Sequence record: NC_052660.1
Direction: 5' to 3' (one strand)
DNA: 64,000 bases
Source of the DNA: Escherichia phage tuntematon
The notes below the pieces were generated by a model. It was not told the DNA's origin and did not search any database. It was given only the letters and a program-made list of their open reading frames with translations. The position numbers and the translations under genes were made by a program. Shown in pieces: positions 6,356 to 17,426 of this stretch. Numbering within the stretch: the stretch's first letter is position 1; every line of letters begins with the position of its first letter.

Positions 6356-6384
6356 AATATAATATAACGCCGATCCCCTGTCAA
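6356..6384 (-). promoter_or_regulatory. sigma70-like early promoter (no leader hairpin)
   Basis: -35 TTGACA (rc 6379-6384) inside inverted repeat atcccct/aggggat, 17-nt spacer, -10 TATATT (rc 6356-6361). Confidence 0.55.
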
Positions 6385-6422
6385 TAGGGGATAGCGCATT
6401 ATTTACATTTCTTTACGTTAAA

Positions 6423-6439
6423 GGGCGCTTGGTGCGCCC
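6423..6439 (-). terminator. terminator-like hairpin after gene 6451..6819
   Basis: gggcgc-ttggt-gcgccc, same hairpin family as 5858 and 12054; weak T-run. Confidence 0.45.
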
Positions 6440-6450
6440 CTTGTATAATC

Positions 6451-6819
6451 TTACTTTGTGCGGTTGTGAACGTTATCGCGTTCAACCATCAGGGCAAGGC
6501 GGATCAGTTGATCAGTTGTATCGCGTAAATTGTCGGGCCATGTTTTACTGTTCCAGCTATCCATGTTTGATTGTATATAGGTTTCAATGGCTTGATCCAT
6601 ATTATCAAACAAGTTTTCCTCCAGGCTCTCGGCTGTTTCACACTGGAAAGCATTAGCGACACTATTAATCAATAAGCAAGCCAGTAAATCAGCATTACGC
6701 CAATTTTTACGGATAGTTTCATCTGTCAGATAACCAACGAGATTAACCTTTGCGCCAGTGGTTGACGTTGCGATCACTTCTTGCGCTTTTTCAAGTGCTT
6801 TAATTGCTGATTTGCTCAT
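6451..6819 (-). CDS. hypothetical early protein
   Basis: ORF-track ORF; RBS AGAGGAAAATAAA. Confidence 0.6.
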   Translation of the reverse strand: MSKSAIKALEKAQEVIATSTTGAKVNLVGYLTDETIRKNWRNADLLACLLINSVANAFQCETAESLEENLFDNMDQAIETYIQSNMDSWNSKTWPDNLRDTTDQLIRLALMVERDNVHNRTK

Positions 6820-6840
6820 TTTATTTTCCTCTTTGTGGGC

Positions 6841-6896
6841 TTGCTGTATTGCTCGCCCTACGCAATAACTATAAGTTAACAGGAGCTATAAAGCAA
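6841..6896 (-). promoter_or_regulatory. PeSL-like promoter + imperfect leader hairpin
   Basis: -35 TTGCTT (rc 6891-6896), -10 TATAGT (rc 6868-6873), conserved cgtaggg then GC-rich segment 6841-6862. Confidence 0.5.
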
Positions 6897-6897
6897 G

Positions 6898-7131
6898 TTA
6901 TTTTTTATAAAATTTTTCTGCTGTGATATTCTTCCCAGTAGGCTTAACCACTTGCAAGATCTTATCATGTGCCGAACGTCCAAAAGAGTAAGATCCGTAC
7001 ACGGTAAACCAATAATCCCCGTTCGGTTGAACGGTTACGGCGGCGTACGGTGTACCTCTTTCATTATCCCCGATAAAGTGAGAAACATTACCGTTAACAT
7101 TTGGTTTAGTGCTTTTAATTTGTTCGATCAT
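6898..7131 (-). CDS. hypothetical early protein
   Basis: ORF; RBS TAGGAG. Confidence 0.55.
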   Translation of the reverse strand: MIEQIKSTKPNVNGNVSHFIGDNERGTPYAAVTVQPNGDYWFTVYGSYSFGRSAHDKILQVVKPTGKNITAEKFYKK

Positions 7132-7149
7132 GATATGACTCCTAAATCA

Positions 7150-7208
7150 GGCGGGAAACATTCCCGCCCTACGTGATAAATAGTAATGTAAGCGTGATCC
7201 GGTGTCAA
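7150..7208 (-). promoter_or_regulatory. PeSL-like promoter + leader stem-loop
   Basis: -35 TTGACA (rc 7203-7208), -10 TACTAT (rc 7180-7185), hairpin ggcgggaa-aca-ttcccgcc 7150-7168. Confidence 0.6.
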
Positions 7209-7345
7209 TAGGTAGAATTGTAAAGATTTGATAGTTTATTCCTTTGATGTTTTGTTGTTTGATAGGCGTTAGTTATCAATATATAGCGGGGTCTTCCAGT
7301 GATTATCTTCCCCGTTGCCAGTGCCGCCCGTTCAATAAGCATAAC

Positions 7346-7375
7346 AAAAAACAGGACAAAAACAAGCCCTGTTTT
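7346..7375 (-). terminator. terminator-like hairpin after gene 7383..7574
   Basis: acagg...cctgt stem followed by TTTTTTG on minus strand. Confidence 0.4.
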
Positions 7376-7382
7376 GTAAAGA

Positions 7383-7574
7383 TTAGATCTCGTCACCTAT
7401 ATAATCAGATCTGTTCTTCTCTGTCATACGCTTAAACAATTCTTGCATATGGCTTATAGCTTGCAAGGTGTCTTCTTCCAGGCTTGAATCAACATAATCA
7501 GGATCATTCTTCACCTTGCTATGGTTGTGATAGCGCAACGCTGCTAATACCTTTCTAACTTGTTCTGTATTCAT
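7383..7574 (-). CDS. hypothetical early protein
   Basis: ORF-track ORF; RBS AGGAATAA. Confidence 0.5.
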   Translation of the reverse strand: MNTEQVRKVLAALRYHNHSKVKNDPDYVDSSLEEDTLQAISHMQELFKRMTEKNRSDYIGDEI

Positions 7575-7585
7575 TTTATTATTCC

Positions 7586-7720
7586 TTAAAACCAGGTGCC
7601 AACCGTTTCCAATAGGTCACTGACTACCAGGACAACATTGATCAGCACATATTCAACCATGAAAGGGATAAGCGCCAGTGTCGCTACTATGATCCCCATT
7701 GTGATGATTACCTTTCTCAT
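7586..7720 (-). CDS. candidate 44-aa small membrane protein
   Basis: Hand-translated MRKVIITMGIIVATLALIPFMVEYVLINVVLVVSDLLETVGTWF; start 2 nt after stop of 7723..8007; not in ORF track. Confidence 0.35.
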   Translation of the reverse strand: MRKVIITMGIIVATLALIPFMVEYVLINVVLVVSDLLETVGTWF

Positions 7721-7722
7721 GG

Positions 7723-8007
7723 TTAGCGGTTTACGTGGGCTTTACCGTTTACGGTCATCGGTATGGCCTCAAGGTCTGGATCTTCCTTAAGGTCGCGCGA
7801 AAGCTCACCGCAGCGGATACCCTCGAATCCGTAGTACTCTGTTGTGCCGTCCTGGAAAGTTTTAGCGGCAAGGCATAGGCGATAATTAACACCGATCCGG
7901 TTTACCGCGTTGATATCGGTTAACGTGATGGATTTAGGCAACTCCTTAGCCATTACAGGCGTGTTAATACCAACAACCAGGGCAACTACTGCGATCATCT
8001 TTTTCAT
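7723..8007 (-). CDS. secreted or periplasmic protein (signal peptide)
   Basis: N-terminus MKKMIAVVALVVGINTPVMA looks like a Sec signal peptide. Confidence 0.6.
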   Translation of the reverse strand: MKKMIAVVALVVGINTPVMAKELPKSITLTDINAVNRIGVNYRLCLAAKTFQDGTTEYYGFEGIRCGELSRDLKEDPDLEAIPMTVNGKAHVNR

Positions 8008-8035
8008 GTGTCTATCCTCTTCCTATTGCGTTTAA

Positions 8036-8051
8036 TAGGGCGTTACCGCCC
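8036..8051 (-). other. intercistronic GC stem-loop (no promoter)
   Basis: agggcg-ttac-cgccct between genes 8062..8298 and 7723..8007; no T-run. Confidence 0.4.
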
Positions 8052-8061
8052 TGCTTAAAGT

Positions 8062-8298: not shown

Positions 8299-8318
8299 AA
8301 TCTTTTCCTTTCTGATGT

Positions 8319-8334: not shown

Positions 8335-8342
8335 TTTGTTGA

Positions 8343-8642
8343 TTAGATCGCTGTTTCCAGTAGTTCGGCTAACGTCTTACCGCCTGATAGTTGGTCTAAC
8401 GTTTGCTCTTCTGGCAAGAAATTAGCTGATATTAATCCGACTTGATTCCCTTTGTGCCAATTAGCTTGACGGATGATTCCATCCTTTAAGGATTTTACCG
8501 CCATTGTGCAACCGTCGCCAAATGATTCATTTTTATGATCCATCACTTCATAAGCGCCCAGTTTGCTGCTGTTAGGCACCATTAACGCGAATACATCACC
8601 AACAACCAGTTTTTCTACGGTAACAATAGCGATAGTTTCCAT
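8343..8642 (-). CDS. hypothetical early protein
   Basis: ORF-track ORF; RBS GAGGAAAAC. Confidence 0.6.
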   Translation of the reverse strand: METIAIVTVEKLVVGDVFALMVPNSSKLGAYEVMDHKNESFGDGCTMAVKSLKDGIIRQANWHKGNQVGLISANFLPEEQTLDQLSGGKTLAELLETAI

Positions 8643-9332: not shown

Positions 9333-9437
9333 TTATCCAATACCGTGGGAAGATAGGATCATGTTAGCCATAGTTGCAATCACTCCAACCGATAACGCCA
9401 GGCCAACCACTGCAACCGTGAAAATTTTCTCTAACAT
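9333..9437 (-). CDS. 34-aa hydrophobic peptide
   Basis: ORF-track ORF 9333..9536 reads through the PeSL hairpin; real start taken as ATG 33 codons in (MLEKIFTVAVVGLALSV...). Confidence 0.4.
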   Translation of the reverse strand: MLEKIFTVAVVGLALSVGVIATMANMILSSHGIG

Positions 9438-9658: not shown

Positions 9659-9678
9659 TATATTACCCTTTAATACAG

Positions 9679-9696
9679 GCGGGATTAATCCCGCCT
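9679..9696 (-). other. intercistronic GC stem-loop
   Basis: ggcggga-ttaa-tcccgcc between 9703.. and 9521..9658. Confidence 0.4.
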
Positions 9697-9702: not shown

Positions 9703-9873
9703 TTACTCTTCATCGTCGCCGTTATAGTATTCAATGCCGTTTTCATCGGTTACGGTGATGTTAACGCCACCGATAGCAACACGATCACGGGCAAACGTCA
9801 TAGCTTCATTTAAATCTTCAGACCAAAAAATATTGTGACCTTTGCGCGATACATAAAACATAGTCGGGATCAT
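9703..9873 (-). CDS. hypothetical early protein (57 aa)
   Basis: ORF-track ORF 9703..9957 translates the PeSL hairpin; start moved to ATG 28 codons in (MIPTMFYV...). Confidence 0.5.
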   Translation of the reverse strand: MIPTMFYVSRKGHNIFWSEDLNEAMTFARDRVAIGGVNITVTDENGIEYYNGDDEE

Positions 9874-9894
9874 GATTTGTTTCTCTTCTGTTGT

Positions 9895-9957
9895 GAGCGG
9901 TGGACCATTCCGCCGCTCTATGTAATAAACTTTACTACGTTGTTTGCCTACTGTCAA
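9895..9957 (-). promoter_or_regulatory. PeSL-like promoter + leader stem-loop
   Basis: -35 TTGACA (rc 9952-9957), 17-nt spacer, -10 TAAAGT (rc 9929-9934), hairpin 9895-9918. Confidence 0.6.
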
Positions 9958-9958: not shown

Positions 9959-10243
9959 TTATTTTTTAATGTTTTGCCCTACAAAATTGATCACTTCCTT
10001 AAGCTGTTTCTCAGTCATGATCGTGCCTGGTAGTTCCTCTTTGATTTCTTCCGGTAAATAGATATTACCGCGCCAGGTTAACAAACAACCGTTTTGATCT
10101 TCGCAGATAGAATAAGAAAACATCCACTCGCAATCATTTTCAAGCTCCCAAAAACACAAAAAGTCTTCTTTCCCTAAGTTTTCAACGGTTAAACATAATC
10201 CGCGACGTGCTGCATAATTAGTTAGGCTTTTTGTTATTTTCAT
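9959..10243 (-). CDS. hypothetical early protein (94 aa)
   Basis: Start moved 17 codons in (MKITKSLTNY); the ORF-track N-terminus is hairpin-encoded. Confidence 0.55.
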   Translation of the reverse strand: MKITKSLTNYAARRGLCLTVENLGKEDFLCFWELENDCEWMFSYSICEDQNGCLLTWRGNIYLPEEIKEELPGTIMTEKQLKEVINFVGQNIKK

Positions 10244-10262
10244 GATTTTTCTCTCTTCTTGT

Positions 10263-10320
10263 GAGCGGCACCATTGCCGCCCTACAAGATACATATTATC
10301 AGACTAGGCGGACTTGTCAA
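10263..10320 (-). promoter_or_regulatory. PeSL-like promoter + leader stem-loop
   Basis: -35 TTGACA (rc 10315-10320), -10 TAATAT (rc 10293-10298), hairpin gcggca-ccat-tgccgc 10265-10280. Confidence 0.65.
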
Positions 10321-10321: not shown

Positions 10322-10432
10322 CTATTTTTTCTTTTTCTTTGCTTCCAACCGTCTAAGGTTACGGCTTGACTTATTGCGCAAGGCGCTTAGATCGTCGTAC
10401 CCTTTCCATGCTTGCATATCTTTCGGATTCAT
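10322..10432 (-). CDS. 36-aa Lys-rich small protein
   Basis: Internal ATG (MNPKDMQAWKGY...KKKKK) with RBS AAGGGGGA; the upstream part of ORF-track ORF 10322..10594 overlaps gene 10443..10721. Confidence 0.4.
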   Translation of the reverse strand: MNPKDMQAWKGYDDLSALRNKSSRNLRRLEAKKKKK

Positions 10433-10442: not shown

Positions 10443-10721
10443 TTAACGGTTATAAACATTATGGATGGCTTCAAAGGCAAGATGACCATAAGCCGCCAAA
10501 TCGGGATTGATCCAAGCGTTATCCAACATCGTTTCAAGGACTGTGGAATCATCGTATAAAGCATCATAGAAATCTGCACGGATGATCGTTTCAATGTCGT
10601 CCGGTGTTAGTTTGTCGTTCAACTTGCACACTGTTTCAACGTCAACACCAATTTTCCAATTTTGTAAATTAGTGGTTAACATTGTTTTCATTTCTTCGGT
10701 TGTTAATTTAACGATGGTCAT
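10443..10721 (-). CDS. hypothetical early protein
   Basis: ORF-track ORF starting right after PeSL unit. Confidence 0.6.
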   Translation of the reverse strand: MTIVKLTTEEMKTMLTTNLQNWKIGVDVETVCKLNDKLTPDDIETIIRADFYDALYDDSTVLETMLDNAWINPDLAAYGHLAFEAIHNVYNR

Positions 10722-10742
10722 GATTTTTTCTCTCTTCTGTTA

Positions 10743-10800
10743 GGCGGGGCGCTTGTCGCCCCTATGTGATACATCTTATCAGGTTGATTCAGCTTGTCAA
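10743..10800 (-). promoter_or_regulatory. PeSL-like promoter + leader stem-loop
   Basis: -35 TTGACA (rc 10795-10800), -10 TAAGAT (rc 10773-10778), hairpin ggggcg-cttgt-cgcccc 10743-10762; flanks near-identical to unit at 10263. Confidence 0.6.
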
Positions 10801-10801: not shown

Positions 10802-10963
10802 CTATTTGTTAGCCGGATTATATGCCAGGACCGCGCCACTTGCTTTCACGCTTTCCGCTTCATAGTTGCGCAGATCGTTTTCTGTAAGATTGAGCGCGAT
10901 CACTTCCTCGATCTCAACGTCAGCGGCAAGGGCGATCTCTTTGATAATATCTGTTGTTTTCAT
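10802..10963 (-). CDS. hypothetical early protein (53 aa)
   Basis: Start moved to ATG 13 codons in (MKTTDIIKEI) with RBS AAGGTG. Confidence 0.5.
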   Translation of the reverse strand: MKTTDIIKEIALAADVEIEEVIALNLTENDLRNYEAESVKASGAVLAYNPANK

Positions 10964-10973: not shown

Positions 10974-11093
10974 TTATAAGATGATTGATAAGATAGTGAC
11001 AACGAAAGCGATTATACTGATGGCAAATGTCATCTTTTTACCTTCGGATACTGCCGGATTCTCTACCGTGTATTCTACTGTGTACTTGCTCAT
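10974..11093 (-). CDS. candidate 39-aa membrane-anchored peptide
   Basis: Hand-translated MSKYTVEYTVENPAVSEGKKMTFAISIIAFVVTILSIIL; RBS GAGAGGA; not in ORF track. Confidence 0.4.
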   Translation of the reverse strand: MSKYTVEYTVENPAVSEGKKMTFAISIIAFVVTILSIIL

Positions 11094-11190: not shown

Positions 11191-11475
11191 TTATGCAGTA
11201 AACAAACCATCATTTACAACGGCGGCGATGATCTCCCGTGCCATTGATTCAGGGAAAGGGGCGCTATAGTCCTGGCTTGTCTCGTCGGTATCAGTGATCC
11301 AATGATAAGCTAACGAGTAAAAGCCTTTACTAACTGTTTTCAGTGAGATGATGATCACTCGGTCAAGCTTATTGGTGAATGTTGCCGTTAATGTGTTACC
11401 CTCCTGCGTCATGTTGGACAAGTAAGCGGGATCATTAATCAGGGAAAACATTAGTACGGTGTTAGCTTTACTCAT
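11191..11475 (-). CDS. hypothetical early protein (94 aa)
   Basis: Start moved 10 codons in (MSKANTVLMF). Confidence 0.55.
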   Translation of the reverse strand: MSKANTVLMFSLINDPAYLSNMTQEGNTLTATFTNKLDRVIIISLKTVSKGFYSLAYHWITDTDETSQDYSAPFPESMAREIIAAVVNDGLFTA

Positions 11476-11495
11476 GATTGCATCCTCAAAGGGGC

Positions 11496-11550
11496 GCGGC
11501 ACCATTGCCGCCCTACACGATAACTATAACACAATGTAAAACAGGATCAA
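11496..11550 (-). promoter_or_regulatory. PeSL-like promoter + leader stem-loop
   Basis: -35 TTGATC (rc 11545-11550), -10 TATAGT (rc 11523-11528), hairpin gcggca-ccat-tgccgc 11496-11511. Confidence 0.6.
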
Positions 11551-11753
11551 CCTTTATTTTTCCACGGTGTCAGCTTGTTAATCATTGGTGATAAATAACG
11601 TTTACCAACGTAAAACAGCACGCCAACTGATGCAACGGCGGCGATCTCATGTAAGGAGGAAGGACGCGCGGTGTCATAGTAGGTACCGATAATAGCAATA
11701 GCGGCTACGGCTGCAACGTCGATAATGATTTTTTCTTGTTTTGCGGTGATCAT
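11547..11753 (-). CDS. small membrane protein
   Basis: Hydrophobic stretches AAVAAIAIIGTYY and AAVASVGVLFYVG. Confidence 0.55.
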   Translation of the reverse strand: MITAKQEKIIIDVAAVAAIAIIGTYYDTARPSSLHEIAAVASVGVLFYVGKRYLSPMINKLTPWKNKG

Positions 11754-12023: not shown

Positions 12024-12053
12024 TTTTGTTTATCCTCTACATGTAAAAAGAAA

Positions 12054-12070
12054 GGGCGCTTGGTGCGCCC
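12054..12070 (-). terminator. intrinsic terminator or leader hairpin
   Basis: gggcgc-ttggt-gcgccc followed on minus strand by TTTCTTTTT. Confidence 0.55.
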
Positions 12071-12078
12071 TTGTTATG

Positions 12079-12225
12079 TTAATCCTCTAAATCCATCCAA
12101 TTATATTTGTCACTCTTCCCGCGCTTTGTTTTATTGCGCTTGTCGCCTTTGCGGATCACTTCCTCATTCCAGGCCTTGCGGATCTTGGAAGATTGAATTT
12201 TTTCTGCGCGATTAGATGTGTTCAT
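12079..12225 (-). CDS. candidate 48-aa basic protein
   Basis: Hand-translated MNTSNRAEKIQSSKIRKAWNEEVIRKGDKRNKTKRGKSDKYNWMDLED; RBS AAAGAGGAAAC; not in ORF track. Confidence 0.4.
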   Translation of the reverse strand: MNTSNRAEKIQSSKIRKAWNEEVIRKGDKRNKTKRGKSDKYNWMDLED

Positions 12226-12245
12226 TTTGTTTCCTCTTTATATGA

Positions 12246-12298
12246 GCGGCACCATTGCCGCTATATTGTTAATTTAAACTGTTTTGTAAAATTGTCAA
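12246..12298 (-). promoter_or_regulatory. PeSL-like promoter (weak -10) + leader stem-loop
   Basis: -35 TTGACA (rc 12293-12298), hairpin gcggca-ccat-tgccgc 12246-12261. Confidence 0.5.
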
Positions 12299-12304: not shown

Positions 12305-12658
12305 TCATTCATAAGAGCAAGCAAGGATCACGCCTGCAATATAAAGCCAATAATTTTCCCTTTCTCGTTGGATTTTATCATCGCTGCTATTCTCTTTAAT
12401 GTATCCCCAGGATGTTAACAAGCGATCAATTTCCCAATATTCGAAAGCGATATTAATGTCTGATGGCAAACCTTGTAACCATGATGCAAGTGCTTTAACA
12501 ATACTATAATTAAAACGTGATTGGTTATCAGGGTACCAGTACTCGGAATTAAAACGGCGCATCAATTCCGCGATCTTCTCTTTTTCGGTTGTAATACCAT
12601 AATCATTAAAATCGATAGCGGCAAGGATGTACTCTTTAATTGCATTTTGTGCTTTCAT
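12305..12658 (-). CDS. hypothetical early protein
   Basis: ORF-track ORF. Confidence 0.6.
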   Translation of the reverse strand: MKAQNAIKEYILAAIDFNDYGITTEKEKIAELMRRFNSEYWYPDNQSRFNYSIVKALASWLQGLPSDINIAFEYWEIDRLLTSWGYIKENSSDDKIQRERENYWLYIAGVILACSYE

Positions 12659-12676
12659 GGTCTTTCTCTCTTTTTA

Positions 12677-12733
12677 GCGGGAACTATTCCCGCCCTATGT
12701 GTAACAGTTTACTGAAAATTAAATCTGTGTCAA
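12677..12733 (-). promoter_or_regulatory. PeSL-like promoter + leader stem-loop
   Basis: -35 TTGACA (rc 12728-12733), -10 TAAACT (rc 12706-12711), hairpin gcgggaa-ctat-tcccgcc 12677-12694. Confidence 0.6.
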
Positions 12734-13031: not shown

Positions 13032-13250
13032 CTATTTACTCATAACAGTATCGAAAACAAATTTTTCTTTGTTGTCAAAGCTCACGTATCCGATTCGACC
13101 ACGCAAGCCGCGAGTAGTGCCGTATTCGTAACCGTCAAGACCTTTAACCTTCCAATCCACGCCCATTAAAACCGCATTATATTTCTGACCAACTACAAAC
13201 GCGCCACCAGTTGATTCAATGCAAACAACTTTAATTTTACGGATTGCCAT
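13032..13250 (-). CDS. hypothetical early protein
   Basis: ORF-track ORF; RBS AGAGAGAAAGAAAA. Confidence 0.55.
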   Translation of the reverse strand: MAIRKIKVVCIESTGGAFVVGQKYNAVLMGVDWKVKGLDGYEYGTTRGLRGRIGYVSFDNKEKFVFDTVMSK

Positions 13251-13288
13251 TTTCTTTCTCTCTTTCTGGTGATTGGTTTCTCTTCTCT

Positions 13289-13312
13289 ATAGCGCCCATT
13301 ATAAGGCGCTAT
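13289..13312 (-). other. intercistronic stem-loop
   Basis: atagcgcc-cattataa-ggcgctat, 8-bp stem. Confidence 0.4.
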
Positions 13313-13328
13313 AACGAAAAGTCAACGA

Positions 13329-13496
13329 TTATTTTTTAAGGCTTAAAGTACCTAACTTGTCAGCGTGACGCAGACCAGGGAAGATCCATTTGCCTGATTC
13401 ATCTTTTACAGGGGCTTTAAGTGTAGCGCCCAGGTTGGCGGCGTTAACTTTACGTGCAACGTTGCGAGCGGCTTCACGGGTAGTAAAAGTAATCAT
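13329..13496 (-). CDS. candidate 55-aa protein
   Basis: Hand-translated MITFTTREAARNVARKVNAANLGATLKAPVKDESGKWIFPGLRHADKLGTLSLKK; not in ORF track. Confidence 0.4.
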   Translation of the reverse strand: MITFTTREAARNVARKVNAANLGATLKAPVKDESGKWIFPGLRHADKLGTLSLKK

Positions 13497-13520
13497 GATG
13501 TTTTCCTCTTCTCTTTGTTA

Positions 13521-13581
13521 GGCGGTGGACCATTCCCCGCCTTGATGTAATACAGTTTACTTTATTTTTGCAGTATTGCAA
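13521..13581 (-). promoter_or_regulatory. PeSL-like promoter + leader stem-loop
   Basis: -35 TTGCAA (13576-13581), -10 TAAACT (rc 13554-13559), hairpin 13521-13541. Confidence 0.55.
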
Positions 13582-13586
13582 GCGTT

Positions 13587-13799
13587 TTATGAAATAATCG
13601 TCAAAGTAAAATTGTAATCACCTGATTGATACAATACCTTGTCACCGAACGTTCCAACACGTTTAACATTGCAATATATACCCATAACACTTTTTACATC
13701 TTTGATATTCTTCACGCCTGTAATATCTTTATTAAAATGATCGTGATCAGAAAATAAAACTTGTTTTGCATTTTTTAACAGTGTGCGGATATTAGCCAT
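13587..13799 (-). CDS. hypothetical early protein
   Basis: ORF-track ORF. Confidence 0.55.
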   Translation of the reverse strand: MANIRTLLKNAKQVLFSDHDHFNKDITGVKNIKDVKSVMGIYCNVKRVGTFGDKVLYQSGDYNFTLTIIS

Positions 13800-13822
13800 C
13801 GTGATAATCTCTCTTCTGTTGT

Positions 13823-13880
13823 GAGCGGCACCATTGCCGCCCTACGTAATATAGTTTACTCTTTTTCTTTCCCGTGTCAA
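13823..13880 (-). promoter_or_regulatory. PeSL-like promoter + leader stem-loop
   Basis: -35 TTGACA (rc 13875-13880), -10 TAAACT (rc 13853-13858), hairpin gcggca-ccat-tgccgc 13825-13840. Confidence 0.65.
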
Positions 13881-13889: not shown

Positions 13890-14117
13890 TCAGATTAATT
13901 CATCCAGGCATAACAGGCGATCAACGTTGAGATCGGTTAGGCTGATGGTTGGCACCTGGTAGGATTCGATGTACTCGACGCTTGCATATTCCCCAAAATT
14001 AGCAATAGCCCACTTATTCAAGATCTCACATACATCATTAATCTTTTTGTTTGTTACAACTGCAATAACCTGGGAAGTGCCAACGGTGCCGGATACGCGA
14101 ACAATATTGATAGCCAT
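13890..14117 (-). CDS. hypothetical early protein
   Basis: ORF-track ORF. Confidence 0.55.
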   Translation of the reverse strand: MAINIVRVSGTVGTSQVIAVVTNKKINDVCEILNKWAIANFGEYASVEYIESYQVPTISLTDLNVDRLLCLDELI

Positions 14118-14139
14118 AATCTTTAATCTCTCTGTTGTT

Positions 14140-14199
14140 GGCGGGAAACCACTTCCCGCCCTATGTGATACATCTTACACTAATTTTAAACGTTGTCAA
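14140..14199 (-). promoter_or_regulatory. PeSL-like promoter + leader stem-loop
   Basis: -35 TTGACA (rc 14194-14199), -10 TAAGAT (rc 14172-14177), hairpin ggcgggaa-accac-ttcccgcc 14140-14160. Confidence 0.65.
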
Positions 14200-14208: not shown

Positions 14209-14448
14209 TTACATTCCAACCATCGCGGCGCGGATCGCAGTAGTGCTATATTTGAAACCGTCTGGCGTTTTATCTTGTCCAGTTTGTTCCAGAAAAAGCA
14301 TCATATCCCGCGCAGCATCATTACGATTAGTATTAGCGGCGATAAATTCTTTCGCCAACCGATATAATGATTCATCGTTATTAATCCAAAGGCTTACATT
14401 CCAATGAGTTTTGTTTTTGTGACCTAAGAACATTTTTGATTTAGCCAT
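14209..14448 (-). CDS. hypothetical early protein
   Basis: ORF-track ORF. Confidence 0.55.
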   Translation of the reverse strand: MAKSKMFLGHKNKTHWNVSLWINNDESLYRLAKEFIAANTNRNDAARDMMLFLEQTGQDKTPDGFKYSTTAIRAAMVGM

Positions 14449-14472
14449 GATATTAATCTCTTTTTCAGTGAG

Positions 14473-14531
14473 GCGGGAACTATTCCCGCTCTCTATGTAA
14501 TACAGTTTACTCTTTTTATTCGTGCTGTCAA
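14473..14531 (-). promoter_or_regulatory. PeSL-like promoter + leader stem-loop
   Basis: -35 TTGACA (rc 14526-14531), -10 TAAACT (rc 14504-14509), hairpin gcgggaa-cta-ttcccgc 14473-14489. Confidence 0.6.
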
Positions 14532-14537: not shown

Positions 14538-14903
14538 TTATAAATCTTTTTTACGTTTAACATCGCTTGCATGACTGTATACAGCGATCCCATTATCACG
14601 GCAAAAACGGGAAAGGTAGGCATAATTTGAAAACTCTTTACCTTCCAGGTTGATAACCTTGCTAAACTCTTCTAGGGCAACGGTATCAAAATGATCCCCA
14701 TAGCCATATTGAAACGGAACGTTAACTACTTCGATCAGTTTACCGCCGATCTCAACGTCAACCATCAAAGAGAAATAAGTATTACCATAAGACTTTTGAA
14801 ACCAGCGACGGGCGCTAATATGTACCGCTTCAATGCTGGATAGTTCAATTTTAGCAGTGTTAGCCAGGGTAGCATAAGCAGAAACATTGATATTTTTAGC
14901 CAT
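14538..14903 (-). CDS. hypothetical early protein
   Basis: ORF-track ORF. Confidence 0.6.
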   Translation of the reverse strand: MAKNINVSAYATLANTAKIELSSIEAVHISARRWFQKSYGNTYFSLMVDVEIGGKLIEVVNVPFQYGYGDHFDTVALEEFSKVINLEGKEFSNYAYLSRFCRDNGIAVYSHASDVKRKKDL

Positions 14904-14950
14904 AGTCTTTAATCTCTTTTGATTAGTTAGGAGTATTCCCGATAAAAGTT

Positions 14951-14988
14951 ATTATGCTTATACTATCACTCATTGTCAATAGTATAAG
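14951..14988 (-). promoter_or_regulatory. early promoter overlapped by 10-bp inverted repeat (operator candidate)
   Basis: -35 TTGACA (rc 14974-14979), -10 CATAAT (rc 14951-14956); inverted repeat cttatactat 14957-14966 / atagtataag 14979-14988. Confidence 0.5.
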
Positions 14989-14998: not shown

Positions 14999-15178
14999 TT
15001 AACGATAATCGTTATAGGCTTTATTGACCTGGCGAATGTAACATTCGAAAGCAAGATCAATGTATTCGTATTCACGCACATAATCACCATAGGTCACTAC
15101 ATACATTTTTAAAGTTTCCTCATAAGCCAGGAGGATCGAATCTAAACCTATAATCTCAGTTTTTGCAATGATAGCCAT
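14999..15178 (-). CDS. candidate 59-aa protein
   Basis: Hand-translated MAIIAKTEIIGLDSILLAYEETLKMYVVTYGDYVREYEYIDLAFECYIRQVNKAYNDYR; not in ORF track. Confidence 0.4.
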   Translation of the reverse strand: MAIIAKTEIIGLDSILLAYEETLKMYVVTYGDYVREYEYIDLAFECYIRQVNKAYNDYR

Positions 15179-15255: not shown

Positions 15256-15261
15256 CCGTTT

Positions 15262-15624
15262 TTATTCGTAAATTTTACCGCTCTCGGCCCATACCATAAC
15301 GCGGCGCATACTATCCCAAGTGTTCTGATCCAAGTTTAAGCCGTGCAACTCTTCGGTACTTCCCAGACCAGGTACCGCCTTGTTGTAAGTAGCATATAAG
15401 CGCCCTTGATACTCATACGCCAGAGTAAGATCCGTTTGAATCATCTTTTTAAGCATAGCATTAAGCATCATATTAGCGGCATGTTGATCACGTTTTAGCG
15501 GTAACATATCAATAAGGGCGCGATAAGCTGAAACATGAATATCAACCGTTTCACGTGGTAAATTTTTCATATCATCGCGGAAAGATACCAGATTAAACAT
15601 GATAGTATTGATTTGCTTGCTCAT
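15262..15624 (-). CDS. hypothetical early protein (120 aa)
   Basis: Start moved 19 codons in (MSKQINTIMFN); ORF-track N-terminus is hairpin-encoded. Confidence 0.55.
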   Translation of the reverse strand: MSKQINTIMFNLVSFRDDMKNLPRETVDIHVSAYRALIDMLPLKRDQHAANMMLNAMLKKMIQTDLTLAYEYQGRLYATYNKAVPGLGSTEELHGLNLDQNTWDSMRRVMVWAESGKIYE

Positions 15625-15646
15625 TGTGTTACCCTTTTTTTGTTTT

Positions 15647-15707
15647 GGCGGGGAAGTATTCCGCCGCCCTATGTGATACATCTTATCAGATTAAAAAACG
15701 TTGTCAA
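15647..15707 (-). promoter_or_regulatory. PeSL-like promoter + leader stem-loop
   Basis: -35 TTGACA (rc 15702-15707), -10 TAAGAT (rc 15680-15685), hairpin 15647-15668. Confidence 0.55.
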
Positions 15708-15716
15708 GAATATTTT

Positions 15717-15812
15717 TTAGAAAATAATAGCCGCTACTACAACCCAAAATGGAACGGCGAAAATGATAGCATTAATCGTTCCAACCGTCAAGCTATTTTC
15801 TTTATTAATCAT
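15717..15812 (-). CDS. candidate 31-aa hydrophobic peptide
   Basis: Hand-translated MINKENSLTVGTINAIIFAVPFWVVVAAIIF; RBS AAGAGG; not in ORF track. Confidence 0.35.
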   Translation of the reverse strand: MINKENSLTVGTINAIIFAVPFWVVVAAIIF

Positions 15813-15839
15813 TGTAAACCTCTTGCATAATTTCACTAT

Positions 15840-15898
15840 GAGCGGCACCATTGCCGCCCTACGTGGTAAATATTATGCCAGTGGCGGCGATATGTCAA
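15840..15898 (-). promoter_or_regulatory. PeSL-like promoter + leader stem-loop
   Basis: -35 TTGACA (rc 15893-15898), 17-nt spacer, -10 TAATAT (rc 15870-15875), hairpin gcggca-ccat-tgccgc 15842-15857. Confidence 0.65.
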
Positions 15899-16461
15899 AG
15901 ACTATTTTCAAAGTTTTCTAGTGCGATCCTTTTTTCTTCCTCTGTCGGCTGATAATCAGGAAAAGCATCAACACACAACAACGGCGGGATCTCTTCGTAC
16001 TCTTCCTCTTCCGTTGTCTCCTCGTCTTCCTCCTGGGCTATGGCTGCAATTTTGGCTAATTTTCTTTCAGCTTGAATCAATTTACCATCAAGTACGTTTT
16101 TTGCCATGTTGTAAGCGGTCCAGGTGATGCGCTTACTTTCCAATGCTTCATCAAGCGCCGCTATCTTGCTGGGGTATTCATCCAGGACACGAAAAGCCGG
16201 ATCAACTTTGTATAAAGGATTATCTTTCGCGCCATCGCTCGCATCTTCCGCACTGGATAAATCAGCGTTACCATTTGCCAGCCAACCAGGGCGCACATAA
16301 CGCGCTTTTACGTTGCCGTTACTACGTGCTAATCTGTTACCTATTTGCTCACCGCTATATCCCGTGGATTCATCGATAAGATGATCGGGAATGATGCGCG
16401 GATCATCTGCTTCATGTTTTACCCAAGACTGGATCACATATTCGCGGCCCATATTAACCAC
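15895..16461 (-). CDS. hypothetical acidic early protein
   Basis: ORF-track ORF; acidic tract EEDEETTEEEEYEEIPP. Confidence 0.6.
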   Translation of the reverse strand: MVNMGREYVIQSWVKHEADDPRIIPDHLIDESTGYSGEQIGNRLARSNGNVKARYVRPGWLANGNADLSSAEDASDGAKDNPLYKVDPAFRVLDEYPSKIAALDEALESKRITWTAYNMAKNVLDGKLIQAERKLAKIAAIAQEEDEETTEEEEYEEIPPLLCVDAFPDYQPTEEEKRIALENFENSL

Positions 16462-16711
16462 CTTTTTTCAACAATTGACATACTTTAAAAAGACTTGCTG
16501 AATCCTTGCAAGGGTAGAAAGATGTACGATAATCACGTACGCCAACCTTGCGGATCTCGATGTTTTCGCATGTTGTTTGATCAAAGATATTTATTTCATC
16601 ACGCCCCCTTATATAAACATAGTGGGGATGTATTAACGCATATTTTGCTAATCTGTAAAAAGCGTTATCTTTGAACGCGATCACGTGACCTTTTAATTTG
16701 ATGTAAAACAT
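16454..16711 (-). CDS. hypothetical early protein
   Basis: ORF-track ORF; 8-nt overlap with downstream gene. Confidence 0.55.
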   Translation of the reverse strand: MFYIKLKGHVIAFKDNAFYRLAKYALIHPHYVYIRGRDEINIFDQTTCENIEIRKVGVRDYRTSFYPCKDSASLFKVCQLLKKGG

Positions 16712-16728
16712 TCTACCACCTTACAAAT

Positions 16729-16784
16729 AGCGGGAACTATTCCCGCTTTATGTAACATATTAACAAATTATTCGTTAATGTCAA
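16729..16784 (-). promoter_or_regulatory. PeSL-like promoter + leader stem-loop
   Basis: -35 TTGACA (rc 16779-16784), -10 TAATAT (rc 16757-16762), hairpin 16729-16747. Confidence 0.6.
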
Positions 16785-16787
16785 GCC

Positions 16788-17060
16788 TTAAAGCAAAAAC
16801 GCTACATCTTGCGCTTTTAGTGTAGTATCAACCATTTTCGGGCTTTTATAATCAACAAAGCGCGCGGTTTTTTCAATAGCGAAACCGAGATAATCTTGTT
16901 TGTTGAAATTACATTCTTTCTTAAATGTTTCCCGTGCAATGGCAATCGCTGCGTCCAGGGATAAACGCCCGTCAATATTGATATTAGCGAAAGATCCGCC
17001 ACCGCTCATAGGTTTACCAGTTGTGCCAGCTACGATCATTGTTGCGCTATATGATGCCAT
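16788..17060 (-). CDS. hypothetical early protein
   Basis: ORF-track ORF; the overlapping 16817..17002 frame is rejected. Confidence 0.55.
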   Translation of the reverse strand: MASYSATMIVAGTTGKPMSGGGSFANINIDGRLSLDAAIAIARETFKKECNFNKQDYLGFAIEKTARFVDYKSPKMVDTTLKAQDVAFLL

Positions 17061-17083
17061 GATGATAATCTCTCTTCTGTTAC

Positions 17084-17144
17084 GAGCGGGAAACCACTTC
17101 CCGCCCTATGTGATACATCTTATCAGGTTGTTGTTTGTTGTCAA
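17084..17144 (-). promoter_or_regulatory. PeSL-like promoter + leader stem-loop
   Basis: -35 TTGACA (rc 17139-17144), -10 TAAGAT (rc 17117-17122), hairpin 17086-17104. Confidence 0.6.
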
Positions 17145-17150
17145 TACTTT

Positions 17151-17348
17151 TTATTCTATCCCTGCAATTTGATTAACGCGCTTGCATTTTGTAGCGTGCT
17201 GGTCTTCTGTAATGACTCCCATTTCTAACAGGGAATCAATGAAAGATAAAACCGTTTCATGATCATCCTGGGGATGACTGAACTCAGTAAAACCGTTTAC
17301 TATTACGTTGATTTGTCCAGCTTTCGCCACAATGTGCAATGTTGCCAT
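17151..17348 (-). CDS. hypothetical early protein (65 aa)
   Basis: Start moved 30 codons in (MATLHIVAKAGQ); ORF-track N-terminus is hairpin-encoded. Confidence 0.5.
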   Translation of the reverse strand: MATLHIVAKAGQINVIVNGFTEFSHPQDDHETVLSFIDSLLEMGVITEDQHATKCKRVNQIAGIE

Positions 17349-17369
17349 GATCTTAACTCCAAATAGTGA

Positions 17370-17426
17370 GCGGCACCATTGCCGCGCTACGTGGTAAATA
17401 TTATGCCGCCACCTGGCGAACGTCAA
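17370..17426 (-). promoter_or_regulatory. PeSL-like promoter + leader stem-loop (first of array)
   Basis: -35 TTGACG (rc 17421-17426), -10 TAATAT (rc 17398-17403), hairpin 17370-17385. Confidence 0.6.

What the first reader, a model, noticed from the sequence alone, without database searches (positions are those of the whole stretch)
6356..17426. Array of 24 reiterated promoter + leader stem-loop cassettes (PeSL-like) driving very small early genes
Across 11 kb nearly every leftward gene is preceded by the same roughly 60-bp unit on the minus strand: TTGACA, a 16-17-nt spacer, a TAnnnT -10, a conserved cgtaggg box, then a GC-rich hairpin before the RBS. Hairpin sequences differ between copies (ggcggcaccattgccgcc, gcgggaactattcccgc, ggcgggaaaccacttcccgcc, ggggcgcttgtcgcccc) but keep base pairing, which argues for selection on RNA or DNA structure. 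Some units are near-identical duplicates (8661, 15840, 17370; 10263 and 10743). Several intercistronic hairpins have no promoter (8036, 8319, 9679, 13289). The pattern looks like a mobile regulatory cassette shuffling small accessory genes, comparable to the promoter-early-stem-loop cassettes reported for T4-type phages, although this phage has T7-type replication genes.
Basis: seen in the sequence. Interest (0 to 1): 0.75.

Follow-up and report, generated by a model that had tools for sequence, protein, structure and literature searches.

The report
Repeated early promoter plus leader-hairpin cassettes
An 11-kb stretch of a phAPEC8-like E. coli phage carries about two dozen copies of one ~80-bp expression unit (strong host-type promoter, a GC hairpin predicted to sit at the start of the transcript, ribosome site) in front of unrelated tiny genes, and related phages differ by gene gains, losses and swaps that break inside these units; this resembles the T4 'PeSL' cassettes but occurs in another phage lineage, so it is interesting but not unprecedented.

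Summary
On the minus strand between 6311 and 17426 there are 25 sigma-70-type promoters. 22 of them are followed at a fixed distance by the box C-R-TAG and a GC-rich hairpin, then a purine-rich ribosome site and an ATG. One more copy lies on the plus strand at 39267. The window is a Phapecoctavirus (phAPEC8-like myovirus). In a complete relative the units are confined to this one array plus that single outlier. Eight relatives differ by indels and replacements whose ends are enriched in the cassettes, several junctions are hybrid cassettes, and the same gene carries different hairpins in different phages. It does not hold for the hairpin's role. From promoter geometry the hairpin starts about +4 to +6 of its own transcript, and none is followed by a U-tract, while true terminators exist elsewhere in the array. 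It is therefore most likely a 5'-terminal leader hairpin (mRNA stabiliser or insulator), not a terminator. That step is inferred, because no transcription start is mapped. The 20-mer was already annotated in phAPEC8 as a 'PHIRE promoter'. Verdict: a new variant of a known kind, of moderate interest.

The parts
17349..17426 (-). cassette u17426: TTGACG-17-TAATAT, CGTAG box, hairpin GCGGCAATGGTGCCGC, ribosome site; precedes the 65-aa gene 17348..17151
   Evidence: Covariance model 66.9 bits; sequence. In L002, L005 and L006 the hairpin segment is replaced.
17061..17144 (-). cassette u17144: TTGACA-16-TAAGAT, CATAG, hairpin GGGCGGGAAGTGGTTTCCCGCTC; precedes gene 17060..16788
   Evidence: Covariance model 40.2 bits; -14.1 kcal/mol. 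The same gene carries five different leader hairpins across the window and seven relatives.
16712..16784 (-). cassette u16784: TTGACA-16-TAATAT, hairpin AGCGGGAATAGTTCCCGCT; precedes gene 16711..16454
   Evidence: Covariance model 26 bits
15813..15898 (-). cassette u15898: TTGACA-17-TAATAT, CGTAG, hairpin GGGCGGCAATGGTGCCGCTC; precedes the 31-aa gene 15812..15717
   Evidence: Covariance model 70.8 bits
15625..15707 (-). cassette u15707: TTGACA-16-TAAGAT, CATAG, hairpin GGCGGCGGAATACTTCCCCGCC; precedes gene 15624..15262
   Evidence: Covariance model 36.7 bits
15179..15255 (-). cassette u15255: TTGACA-16-TATAGT (TGn), CGTAG, hairpin GGCGGCAATGGTGCCGCC; precedes gene 15178..14999
   Evidence: Covariance model 79 bits; leader fold z -2.3
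14904..14979 (-). promoter without a strong leader hairpin: TTGACA-17-CATAAT; precedes gene 14903..14538
14449..14531 (-). cassette u14531: TTGACA-16-TAAACT, CATAG, hairpin GAGAGCGGGAATAGTTCCCGCCTC; precedes gene 14448..14209
   Evidence: Covariance model 23.9 bits. Crossover partner in the L004 deletion.
14118..14199 (-). cassette u14199: TTGACA-16-TAAGAT, CATAG, hairpin GGCGGGAAGTGGTTTCCCGCC; precedes gene 14117..13890
   Evidence: Covariance model 47.3 bits; leader fold z -3.8. A different hairpin class stands before the same gene in L005 and L006.
13800..13880 (-). cassette u13880: TTGACA-16-TAAACT, CGTAG, hairpin GGGCGGCAATGGTGCCGCTC; precedes gene 13799..13587
   Evidence: Covariance model 71.3 bits. 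Crossover partner in the L007 deletion.
13497..13583 (-). cassette u13583: TTGCAA-16-TAAACT, hairpin AGGCGGGGAATGGTCCACCGCCT with a bulge; precedes gene 13496..13329
   Evidence: Covariance model 14.1 bits. Hybrid junctions with 75-77 nt of overlap in L004 and L007.
13251..13325 (-). promoter TTGACT-16-TATAAT whose -10 lies in the loop of the stem AGCGCC/GGGCGCT; no leader hairpin; precedes gene 13250..13032
12659..12733 (-). cassette u12733: TTGACA-16-TAAACT, CATAG, hairpin GGCGGGAATAGTTCCCGCT; precedes gene 12658..12305
   Evidence: Covariance model 34.4 bits; leader fold z -3.7
12226..12298 (-). cassette u12298: TTGACA-16-TAAATT, hairpin AGCGGCAATGGTGCCGCT (outer A-U pair); precedes the 48-aa basic gene 12225..12079
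   Evidence: Covariance model 58.1 bits
11754..11831 (-). cassette u11831: TTGACA-16-TAAACT, hairpin GGCGGGGAATAGTTCCCACC; precedes gene 11753..11547
   Evidence: Covariance model 14.7 bits. Relatives carry one extra C that restores pairing.
11485..11550 (-). cassette u11550: weak -35 TTGATC-16-TATAGT (TGn), TGTAG, hairpin GCGGCAATGGTGCCGC; precedes gene 11484..11191
   Evidence: Covariance model 63.4 bits
11094..11173 (-). degenerate cassette u11173: TTGCAA-16-TATATT, CATAGGGCGG, short hairpin GGGAATAGTTCCC; precedes gene 11093..10974
   Evidence: below the covariance-model threshold
10722..10800 (-). cassette u10800: TTGACA-16-TAAGAT, CATAG, hairpin GGGGCGACAAGCGCCCC; precedes gene 10721..10443
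   Evidence: Covariance model 24.3 bits. Cassette plus gene are absent from L001, L003, L005 and L007.
10244..10320 (-). cassette u10320: TTGACA-16-TAATAT, TGTAG, hairpin GGGCGGCAATGGTGCCGCTC; precedes gene 10243..9959
   Evidence: Covariance model 70.3 bits. Hybrid with u8717 in L007.
9874..9957 (-). cassette u9957: TTGACA-17-TAAAGT, CATAG, hairpin GAGCGGCGGAATGGTCCACCGCTC; precedes gene 9873..9703
   Evidence: Covariance model 43.8 bits
9438..9517 (-). cassette u9517: TTGACA-16-TAAAGT, CGTAG, interrupted hairpin GGGCGGGGCAATGGTGCAACGCCT; precedes gene 9437..9333
   Evidence: Covariance model 44.4 bits
8643..8717 (-). cassette u8717: TTGACA-16-TATTAT (TGn), CGTAG, hairpin GGCGGCAATGGTGCCGCC; precedes gene 8642..8343
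   Evidence: Covariance model 77.1 bits. Duplicated around an extra ORF in L006 and L008.
7132..7208 (-). cassette u7208: TTGACA-17-TACTAT, CGTAG, hairpin GGGCGGGAATGTTTCCCGCCT; precedes gene 7131..6898
   Evidence: Covariance model 36.8 bits. Crossover with u6887 in L003, L006 and L008.
6820..6887 (-). degenerate cassette u6887: TTGCTT..TATAGT, CGTAG, interrupted hairpin GGGCGAGCAATACAGCAAGCCC; precedes gene 6819..6451
   Evidence: Covariance model 12.5 bits
6311..6384 (-). last promoter of the array: TTGACA-17-TATATT, no leader hairpin; precedes gene 6310..5891
39267..39342 (+). the only cassette outside the array: TTGACA-16-TAAGAT, hairpin GCGGGGAATAGTTCCCCGC; precedes the TerC-like membrane protein gene 39343..40317
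   Evidence: Covariance model 29.5 bits; phrog_7180; leader fold z -4.1. Conserved in Mt1B1_P17.
9677..9696 (-). promoterless intercistronic hairpin GGCGGGATTAATCCCGCC preceded by TCAACAA
8319..8334 (-). promoterless intercistronic hairpin GGGGCGGCAACGCCCC preceded by TCAACAAA
8038..8051 (-). promoterless intercistronic hairpin GGGCGGTAACGCCC
12052..12072 (-). canonical intrinsic terminator inside the array (hairpin followed by TCTTTTT)
7348..7375 (-). canonical intrinsic terminator (hairpin followed by TTGTTAT, T-rich stem)
5855..5877 (-). canonical intrinsic terminator that closes the array

Best explanation
The region is the early 'small-gene' array of a phAPEC8-like phage. It is built from about 25 self-contained expression units of roughly 75-85 bp. 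Each unit starts right after the stop codon of the gene before it. In order, it holds an A-rich tract, a perfect or near-perfect -35 (TTGACA), a non-conserved 16-17-nt spacer, a -10 (often with an extended TGn), and a 7-nt discriminator ending in C. Then come a purine (the probable start site), TAG, a 6-10-bp GC hairpin, about 10 unstructured nt, a purine-rich Shine-Dalgarno sequence and the ATG. Host sigma-70 RNA polymerase initiates at each unit (inferred from the consensus). The transcript then begins 5'-RUAG followed at once by the hairpin (inferred from geometry). With only 3-5 unpaired 5' nucleotides, the hairpin most likely shields these short early mRNAs from 5'-end-dependent decay by RppH and RNase E. 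In read-through transcripts it most likely acts as an insulator or exonuclease barrier between cistrons, leaving the ribosome site open. This function is inferred by analogy with the ompA and papA 5' stem-loops. Because the same ~80 bp recurs every 250-450 bp in one orientation, the units also serve as portable homology. Recombination between them deletes, inserts, reorders and re-heads gene modules; this is shown by comparison with relatives. In genome dynamics the array therefore works like the PeSL cassettes of T4-type phages, but with a transcribed leader hairpin in place of a promoter-embedded terminator.
For: Anatomy: there are 12 exact pattern matches against 0 expected and 22 covariance-model hits in the window. 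All intergenic regions were read.

Selection acts on the functional elements rather than on repeated DNA as a whole. Among 14 units, identity is 1.00 in the -35, 0.35 in the spacer, 0.73 in the -10, 0.62 in the discriminator and 0.70 over +1..+9.

Every leader folds into one 5' hairpin with the ribosome site unpaired, with z-scores of -2.3 to -4.4.

Pairing is kept through sequence change. 97.5% of cells are paired; one pair swaps C-G and G-C 51:33 with none unpaired; the outer pair runs G-C 20 / G.U 29 / A-U 8. The sense-strand hairpin is more stable than the antisense one in 70 cassettes against 15.

The hairpins are not terminators by sequence. There are 0-3 T in the 8 nt after each stem, and none passes the terminator scan. 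Three hairpins with U-tracts in the same array do pass it.

Recombination: of 20 distinct breakpoint events against 8 relatives, 17 of 40 ends fall in cassettes, which make up 17.6% of the sequence (binomial p about 5e-4). Hybrid cassettes can be read base by base. In L006 and L008 an extra ORF is flanked by a duplicated cassette. The same orthologous gene carries different hairpin classes in different phages, for example gene 17060.

Distribution: in a whole 150-kb relative the units are confined to one array plus one outlier. Related units occur in phi92 and in the Vequintavirus FV3, where two of them flank FV3-only ORFs and the gene order differs.

That a 5'-terminal stem-loop can stabilise E. 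coli mRNA is established knowledge: Emory et al. 1992 and Bouvet & Belasco 1992, as listed in the reference list of PMC3997798.
Against: No transcription start, half-life or expression timing is available for this phage or any relative, so 'early', the position of +1 and the stabilising effect are all inferences. A tail of 3-5 unpaired 5' nucleotides is at the upper limit of what is thought to protect against RppH and RNase E. Covariation is modest: most stem positions never vary, and the few changes are inherited by many related copies, so the counts overstate the number of independent events. One hairpin family (CGG...CCA) has a C/A mismatch that would be a G.U pair on the antisense strand. 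BLAST block ends are approximate, and the eight relatives are not independent. The hairpin stem-loop of one T4-type PeSL cut reporter expression as strongly as a terminator (PMC2839356), so a U-less GC hairpin cannot be excluded as an attenuator by sequence alone.
Confidence: 0.6

Rival explanations
1. True PeSL-type element: the stem-loop is a terminator or attenuator. It stops or damps transcription arriving from the upstream cassette, so that each small gene is expressed only from its own promoter.
For: The PeSL stem-loop of RB49 reduced lacZ expression like rrnB T1 in a reporter (PMC2839356). Without attenuation, transcription would accumulate along 25 co-oriented strong promoters. The hairpins are GC-rich and stable.
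Against: The hairpin lies downstream of its own promoter, so a strong terminator would also abort the unit's own transcript. None has a U-tract (0-3 T in 8 nt), while the array uses canonical hairpin-plus-U terminators at three other places. The fixed distance from the -10 hexamer fits a leader element. PeSL stem-loops have variable positions.
Confidence: 0.15
2. The box plus hairpin is a common RNA tag read by a trans-acting phage or host factor. It could load an antiterminator (nut/boxB-like) or mark all early mRNAs for coordinated shut-off or translational control.
For: The box R-TAG-GGCGG is conserved at the 5' end of all units. Three terminators lie within and at the end of the array and could need read-through. 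Regulon-wide tags are known in other phages (lambda nut and T4 RegB targets; from memory).
Against: Loop sequences and lengths are not conserved (AUGG, UAG, GUGGU, ACAAG, UGU), and hairpin classes are freely exchanged before the same gene. No N-like or other RNA-binding family was found among the 37 array proteins. The basic 48-aa protein belongs to the T7 gene 1.1 family. Twenty-two loading sites in 11 kb would be redundant.
Confidence: 0.1
3. The inverted repeat acts in double-stranded DNA as the operator of a dimeric phage repressor. Binding at +5 to +25 would switch off all early promoters together.
For: A palindrome centred just downstream of the start site is a classical operator position. 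One factor could silence 22 promoters. The outer half-sites GGCGG/CCGCC are well conserved.
Against: The distance between the conserved outer half-sites varies from 8 to 12 bp among units, which a rigid dimer would not tolerate. Changes in one arm are mirrored in the other, and G.U pairs are frequent on the sense strand only, as expected for RNA pairing and not for protein contacts.
Confidence: 0.05
4. The conserved 20-mer is a phage-specific promoter, as annotated in the phAPEC8 record ('putative promoter determined with PHIRE').
For: GenBank annotation of NC_020079. The motif is conserved, oriented, and lies just upstream of genes.
Against: PHIRE reports any over-represented 20-mer. The 20-mer is the box plus hairpin (gtagggcggcaatggtgccg) and sits about 20 nt from the ATG, directly behind a near-consensus sigma-70 promoter. 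No phage RNA polymerase or sigma factor is annotated in the complete relative, in the parts of the phAPEC8 record read, or among the window proteins scanned. Its variation follows base-pairing rules.
Confidence: 0.03
5. The hairpin has no function of its own. The units are simply copies of one ancestral intergenic segment spread by duplication and gene conversion.
For: Many copies share the identical hairpin GGCGGCAATGGTGCCGC (69 of 150 aligned cassettes). Patchy exchange between cassettes is evident.
Against: Spacers between the elements have drifted to near-random identity (0.35) while the -35, the -10, the box and the stem stay conserved. Stems keep pairing through swaps while loops vary. 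The architecture persists in a second subfamily, Vequintavirinae, as well as in two genera of Stephanstirmvirinae.
Confidence: 0.05

Closest known systems
PeSL (promoter-early stem-loop) cassettes of T4-type phages (Arbiol et al. 2010, PMC2839356; Comeau et al. 2014, PMC4122927)
   Same: Both are short repeated intergenic units that combine a strong sigma-70-type early promoter with a GC stem-loop and a Shine-Dalgarno sequence. Both cluster in a plastic region in front of small ORFs of unknown function. In both, indels, replacements and reorderings between close relatives have their ends in the units, with crossovers between the -10 and the ATG.
   Different: The phage lineage differs (Stephanstirmvirinae and Vequintavirinae, not T4-like). 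The stem-loop here has one fixed position inside the predicted transcript (+4 to about +25), whereas PeSL stem-loops sit at five variable positions before the start site. Here there is no U-tract and no test of termination. Mini-circles have not been examined. A PeSL-like subclass does occur nearby: the stem around the -10 at 13325, and the stem around the -35 in FV3.
5'-terminal stabilising stem-loops of E. coli mRNAs (ompA, papA; Emory, Bouvet & Belasco 1992; cited from the reference list of PMC3997798)
   Same: Both are stable hairpins within a few nucleotides of the 5' end of the transcript, upstream of an accessible ribosome site. The effect is sequence-independent, which fits the free exchange of hairpin classes before one gene.
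   Different: Those are single cellular genes with measured half-lives. Here the start site and the stabilisation are inferred, and the element is reiterated 22 times as part of a promoter cassette.
Host-takeover module of Bacillus phage SPO1 (Stewart et al. 1998; recalled from memory, not checked here)
   Same: Both are compact blocks of about two dozen very small early genes, served by many strong host-type promoters and strong ribosome sites.
   Different: SPO1 units are operons with their own terminators. No common leader hairpin or cassette-mediated shuffling has been reported for SPO1, as far as I recall.
lambda-type nut sites (boxA plus the boxB hairpin)
   Same: Both have a conserved linear box followed by a short hairpin near the 5' end of early transcripts.
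   Different: boxB has a conserved GNRA-like pentaloop read by the N protein. Here the loops vary, no N-like protein was found, and there are 22 copies.
'PHIRE promoters' in the phAPEC8 GenBank record NC_020079 / JX561091
   Same: It is the same 20-mer at the same places.
   Different: There it is filed as a putative phage promoter, with no mention in the record of a hairpin, the leader position, the ~80-bp unit or recombination.

Membership tests
PeSL cassettes (T4-type phages) | Strong sigma-70-like early promoter in the unit | tested here: met
   Perfect TTGACA in 19 units, a 16-17-nt spacer, TAnnnT, and TGn in 8 of 14. This is a consensus match only; activity was not measured.
PeSL cassettes (T4-type phages) | Stable stem-loop within the same intergenic unit | tested here: met
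   Present in 22 of 25 units, at -8 to -20 kcal/mol
PeSL cassettes (T4-type phages) | Stem-loop placed upstream of, within or overlapping the promoter, before the start site (five subclasses) | tested here: not met
   The stem starts 10-11 nt after the -10 hexamer, about +4 to +6 of the predicted transcript, in all 22 units. Only p13325 has its stem around the -10.
PeSL cassettes (T4-type phages) | Stem-loop acts as a terminator or attenuator of upstream transcription | not testable with these tools
   The sequence argues against a canonical intrinsic terminator, since there is no U-tract. Function needs a reporter or in vitro assay.
PeSL cassettes (T4-type phages) | Clustered in a hyperplastic region in front of small ORFs of unknown function | tested here: met
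   37 ORFs of 31-185 aa, all in different PHROG families of unknown function. The units are confined to one array in a whole genome.
PeSL cassettes (T4-type phages) | Indel and replacement ends between close relatives lie in the units | tested here: met
   17 of 40 ends against 17.6% expected, p about 5e-4; hybrid cassettes
PeSL cassettes (T4-type phages) | Formation of excised mini-circles | not testable with these tools
   Needs inverse PCR on infected cells
5'-terminal stabilising stem-loop (ompA type) | Hairpin within about 0-4 unpaired nt of the mRNA 5' end | tested here: inconclusive
   3-5 nt if initiation is at the conserved purine 8 nt after the -10 (C at -1, R at +1). The start site is not mapped.
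5'-terminal stabilising stem-loop (ompA type) | Prolongs mRNA half-life in an RNase E / RppH-dependent way | not testable with these tools
   Needs half-life measurements
Intrinsic (Rho-independent) terminator | GC hairpin immediately followed by a U-tract | tested here: not met
   None of the 22 leader hairpins passes the scan. The positive controls 12072, 7375 and 5877 in the same array do.
lambda nut / boxB | Conserved pentaloop hairpin plus a cognate N-like arginine-rich protein | tested here: not met
   Loops vary in length and sequence. A Pfam scan of the 37 array proteins finds no N family; the basic 48-aa protein is Phage_1_1.
Any Rfam family | Match at or above the gathering score | tested here: not met
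   Only one chance-level hit, at E = 0.64

The most novel reading that the evidence does not exclude
The box plus leader hairpin is more than a passive stabiliser: it is a regulon-wide handle. A dedicated phage or host factor would read the 5'-RUAG-hairpin tag to switch the whole early gene set, by coordinated decay, translational control or antitermination through the three internal terminators. Alternatively or in addition, the cassettes are actively excised and exchanged as promoter-ORF mini-circles between phages of two subfamilies (Stephanstirmvirinae and Vequintavirinae). That would make them a general gene-trafficking device of large virulent coliphages beyond the T4 group.
Probability: 0.12. 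Interest if true: 0.75.

Novelty: new variant of a known kind. Interest (0 to 1): 0.45.

Why it matters
It extends the PeSL idea, in which repeated promoter/stem-loop units both express accessory genes and shuffle them, from T4-type phages to the phAPEC8 / phi92 / rV5 supergroup, which is widely used in phage therapy. It shows a distinct architecture in which the hairpin is predicted to be part of the transcript. It also re-reads the features filed as 'PHIRE promoters' in the phAPEC8 reference record. It explains much of the mosaic variation seen among closely related therapeutic phages in this region. Finally, it offers a natural series of compact, strong promoter/5'UTR parts, and a directly testable case for 5'-hairpin protection of phage early mRNAs.

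Tried and rejected
1. A MAFFT alignment of all 23 units (A1) misaligned the 3' arms of hairpins of different length. I used a covariance model built from the 8 equal-length units instead.

2. Rfam at a permissive threshold found nothing.

3. I noticed that the basic 48-aa protein 12225..12079 superficially resembles the arginine-rich motif of lambda N. Pfam places it in the T7 gene 1.1 family, so I dropped the idea.

4. I rejected the operator reading because half-site spacing varies by 4 bp and arm changes are mirrored.

5. I rejected the terminator reading on sequence grounds, for lack of U-tracts.

6. Literature searches found no description of this unit. I searched for Phapecoctavirus / phAPEC8 / rV5 promoters, stem-loops and transcriptomes, and for the motif as a text string. 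The rV5 paper lists only sigma-70 promoters and terminators. The phAPEC8 genome announcement itself is not in the library.

7. A first sense/antisense energy comparison was corrupted by truncated rows, so I redid it.

8. I did not use the large protein or metagenome searches, because the question is about non-coding repeats and the phage collection gave enough relatives.

Full report
**What the window is.** Megablast of 6000-18000 against the phage collection gives 306 records. The best are Escherichia phages vB_EcoM_EP57 (99.1%) and Mt1B1_P17 (96.9%), both genus Phapecoctavirus, subfamily Stephanstirmvirinae, with genomes of about 130-152 kb. All genes under the match are annotated 'hypothetical protein'. 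PHROG scans elsewhere in the window find a family-A DNA polymerase, a primase-helicase, NrdD and a tail protein.

**Checking the observation.** I read the minus strand of 6000-17800 and extracted every intergenic region between the 37 leftward ORFs. Most gaps are 73-95 nt and have the same order of parts:
- the stop codon within an A-rich tract;
- TTGACA, a 16-17-nt spacer, and TAnnnT;
- about 7 nt ending in C, then a purine, then TAG;
- a GC-rich hairpin, about 10 nt, a purine-rich Shine-Dalgarno sequence, and the ATG.

The pattern TTGACA-N16/17-TANNNT-N5-8-YRTAGNGCGG has 12 exact matches, all on the minus strand between 7164 and 17144, against none in 100 shuffles. TAGGGCGG occurs 13 times on the minus strand of the region and never on the plus strand. 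A covariance model built from eight equal-length units finds 22 units in the 64-kb window at E<1. Of these, 21 are on the minus strand at 6831-17428 and one is on the plus strand at 39265-39331, in front of a TerC-like membrane protein gene.

Counting by eye gives 25 promoters. 22 have the leader hairpin (one degenerate, u11173) and three lack it (14979, 13325, 6384). So '24 units' is about right. 'Nearly every gene' is too strong: 25 of 37 genes have a promoter. The hairpin at about 13289 is not promoterless, because it encloses the -10 of TTGACT-16-TATAAT. The truly promoterless hairpins are at 9677-9696, 8319-8334 and 8038-8051. Three canonical terminators (12052-12072, 7348-7375, 5855-5877) also lie in or at the end of the array.

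**Are the elements selected or merely repeated?** Among 14 units with a 16-nt spacer, mean pairwise identity is 1.00 in the -35, 0.35 in the spacer, 0.73 in the -10, 0.62 in the discriminator and 0.70 in the first nine transcribed positions. Conserved elements separated by drifted spacers point to selection on a promoter and on what follows it. The 37 proteins are unrelated to each other. Each falls in its own PHROG family of unknown function, and one 48-aa basic protein belongs to the T7 gene 1.1 family.

**The hairpin.**
- *Fold.* From the conserved purine to the ATG, each leader folds into a single hairpin near the 5' end with the ribosome site unpaired. Energies are -12 to -16 kcal/mol and z-scores -2.3 to -4.4.
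- *Pairing counts.* The model finds 164 units in the window plus eight relatives. On the 150 aligned units, 97.5% of cells are paired. One pair alternates C-G (51) and G-C (33) with no unpaired cell. The outer pair is G.U 40, G-C 35, A-U 10.
- *Where variation falls.* Within the commonest hairpin class (69 copies), variation is confined to the loop and the outermost pair, which runs G-C 20, G.U 29, A-U 8.
- *Strand.* The sense-strand hairpin is more stable than the antisense one in 70 cassettes against 15. One family has a C/A mismatch that points the other way.
- *Limits.* Covariation is real but modest, and the counts are inflated by shared ancestry.
- *Loops and spacing.* Loops differ in sequence and length (AUGG, UAG, GUGGU, ACAAG, UGU). 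The distance between the conserved outer arms varies by 4 bp. This argues against a dimeric DNA operator and against loop-specific protein recognition.

**Position relative to the promoter.** The stem starts 10-11 nt after the -10 hexamer in all units. The conserved C-purine step lies 7-8 nt after the hexamer, which is where E. coli RNA polymerase prefers to start (pyrimidine at -1, purine at +1; established knowledge, not tested here). The predicted transcript therefore begins 5'-RUAG followed by the stem. None of the 22 hairpins is followed by a U-tract: there are 0-3 T in 8 nt, and none passes the terminator scan. Three hairpins with U-tracts in the same array do pass it. A strong terminator at this place would also abort the unit's own transcript. 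The best reading is a 5'-terminal leader hairpin. Such hairpins are known to stabilise E. coli mRNAs against 5'-end-dependent decay (Emory et al. 1992; Bouvet & Belasco 1992; titles as listed in PMC3997798). This step is inference, because no start site or half-life is available.

**Comparison with relatives.** I fetched the homologous regions of eight phages and aligned them to 5800-18000. Blocks of 85-99% identity are interrupted by recurrent indels and replacements. I distinguish 20 events. Of their 40 ends, 17 fall within cassettes, which occupy 17.6% of the region (binomial p about 5e-4). Five events have both ends in cassettes, with 17-77 nt of overlapping homology. The junctions read base by base are hybrid cassettes:
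- In Ro121c4YLVW the promoter of u7208 is joined to the hairpin and gene of u6887, with the switch in CGTAGGGC.
- In nieznany the promoter of u10320 is joined to the leader of u8717, with the switch inside the shared 22 nt TGTAGGGCGGCAATGGTGCCGC. This removes seven genes.
- Two further deletions join u13880 or u14531 to u13583, within the -10 and discriminator.

In PsgM04F and SKA64 an extra ORF is flanked by a duplicated cassette. Leader hairpins are also exchanged in place. The ortholog of gene 17060..16788 carries five different hairpin sequences across the window and seven relatives. Gene 14117..13890 carries three hairpin versions. Gene 17348..17151 has lost the hairpin in three phages. 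This is the pattern described for PeSLs, where crossovers lie between the -10 and the ATG (PMC2839356 and PMC4122927). It needs nothing more than homologous recombination between repeats; active mobility is not shown.

**Distribution.** In the complete genome of Mt1B1_P17 (150 kb in three loci) the model finds 18 units in one array at 2.5-12.3 kb, plus the same single plus-strand unit and nothing else convincing. A single cassette used as a blastn query hits 150 phage records. Every one of the 60 listed is 130-156 kb in size. Phapecoctavirus records have many copies, Justusliebigvirus records three to four places, and Vequintavirus records one place. Phi92 has 11 model hits in 12 kb. The Vequintavirus FV3 has five. 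Two of them are nearly identical to the commonest class here and flank two FV3-only ORFs with no homolog in the fetched loci. The order of shared genes also differs from the window. FV3 carries three exact copies of a second unit in which the stem-loop embraces the -35 hexamer, plus one divergent copy seen in the intergenic listing. That is a typical PeSL subclass.

**Prior knowledge.** The phAPEC8 reference record annotates the sigma-70 part of some units as a 'putative host dependent promoter determined with MEME'. It annotates the 20-mer gtagggcggcaatggtgccg, which is the box plus hairpin, as a 'putative promoter determined with PHIRE', 12 times in the array. So the repeated motif was noticed in 2012, but it was filed as a phage promoter. 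I found no paper describing it as a leader hairpin, as an ~80-bp unit, or as a recombination substrate. The genome announcement itself is not in the library, so I cannot exclude a sentence there. Rfam has no matching family.

**Verdict.** In genome dynamics the array behaves like PeSL cassettes, but it fails one defining PeSL feature, the position of the stem-loop before the start site. The presumed terminator role could not be tested, and the sequence argues against it. I do not file it as a PeSL. I describe it as a PeSL-like variant with a transcribed leader hairpin, in a different phage lineage. My confidence is high for the anatomy, good for cassette-associated shuffling, and moderate for the stabiliser function. 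Interest is moderate at 0.45: it is a useful generalisation and re-annotation that can be tested directly, not a new principle.

Noticed in passing
window 4300-5890: About 1.5 kb of AT-rich sequence without convincing ORFs, directly downstream of the terminator that closes the array. Relatives leave it unannotated or fill it with tiny, doubtful ORFs. It contains a 24-bp tandem repeat at 4357-4406. It may be a genome end, a packaging site or an origin region.
   Followed up: partly
window 17800-18600, repeat at 18061-18140: A non-coding stretch beside the divergent gene 17536-17802. It holds 2.8 copies of a 29-bp unit containing the palindrome AAATGAGAATCATTCTCATTT, which looks like a protein-binding or origin-type repeat.
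   Followed up: no
window 9677-9703 and 8319-8342 (minus strand): The promoterless intercistronic hairpins are preceded by a conserved TCAACAA(A). Read on the plus strand this is a hairpin followed by TTTGTTGA, so the terminator scan flags them as terminators for antisense transcription.
   Followed up: partly
window 12079-12225 (minus strand): A 48-aa, very basic protein matches Pfam Phage_1_1 (the T7 gene 1.1 protein family, E = 5e-13). It is followed directly by a canonical terminator.
   Followed up: partly
window 39267-40317 (plus strand): The only cassette outside the array drives a TerC-like membrane protein gene inside the replication and nucleotide-metabolism block. This looks like a moron carrying its own portable promoter-leader unit. 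It is conserved in Mt1B1_P17.
   Followed up: partly
window 13251-13325 (minus strand): The promoter TTGACT-16-TATAAT has its -10 hexamer in the loop of the stem AGCGCC/GGGCGCT. This arrangement matches one PeSL subclass and differs from the other units.
   Followed up: partly
L014 (phage FV3) 448-465, 1070-1087, 4789-4806: The Vequintavirus early array carries a second repeated unit in which a stem-loop (TGGCC-TTGACT-CCAGGGCCA) embraces the -35 hexamer. It is absent from the window and from the Phapecoctavirus loci.
   Followed up: partly
window 10443-10963 compared with L001 7420-7476: In EP57 and three other relatives, loss of the segment 10446-10802 (cassette u10800 plus its gene) fuses the flanking ORFs 10963..10802 and 10432..10322 in frame into one longer ORF.
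   Followed up: partly
window 4-83: A 30-bp tandem repeat (2.7 copies, 94% matches) lies at the left edge of the window.
   Followed up: no
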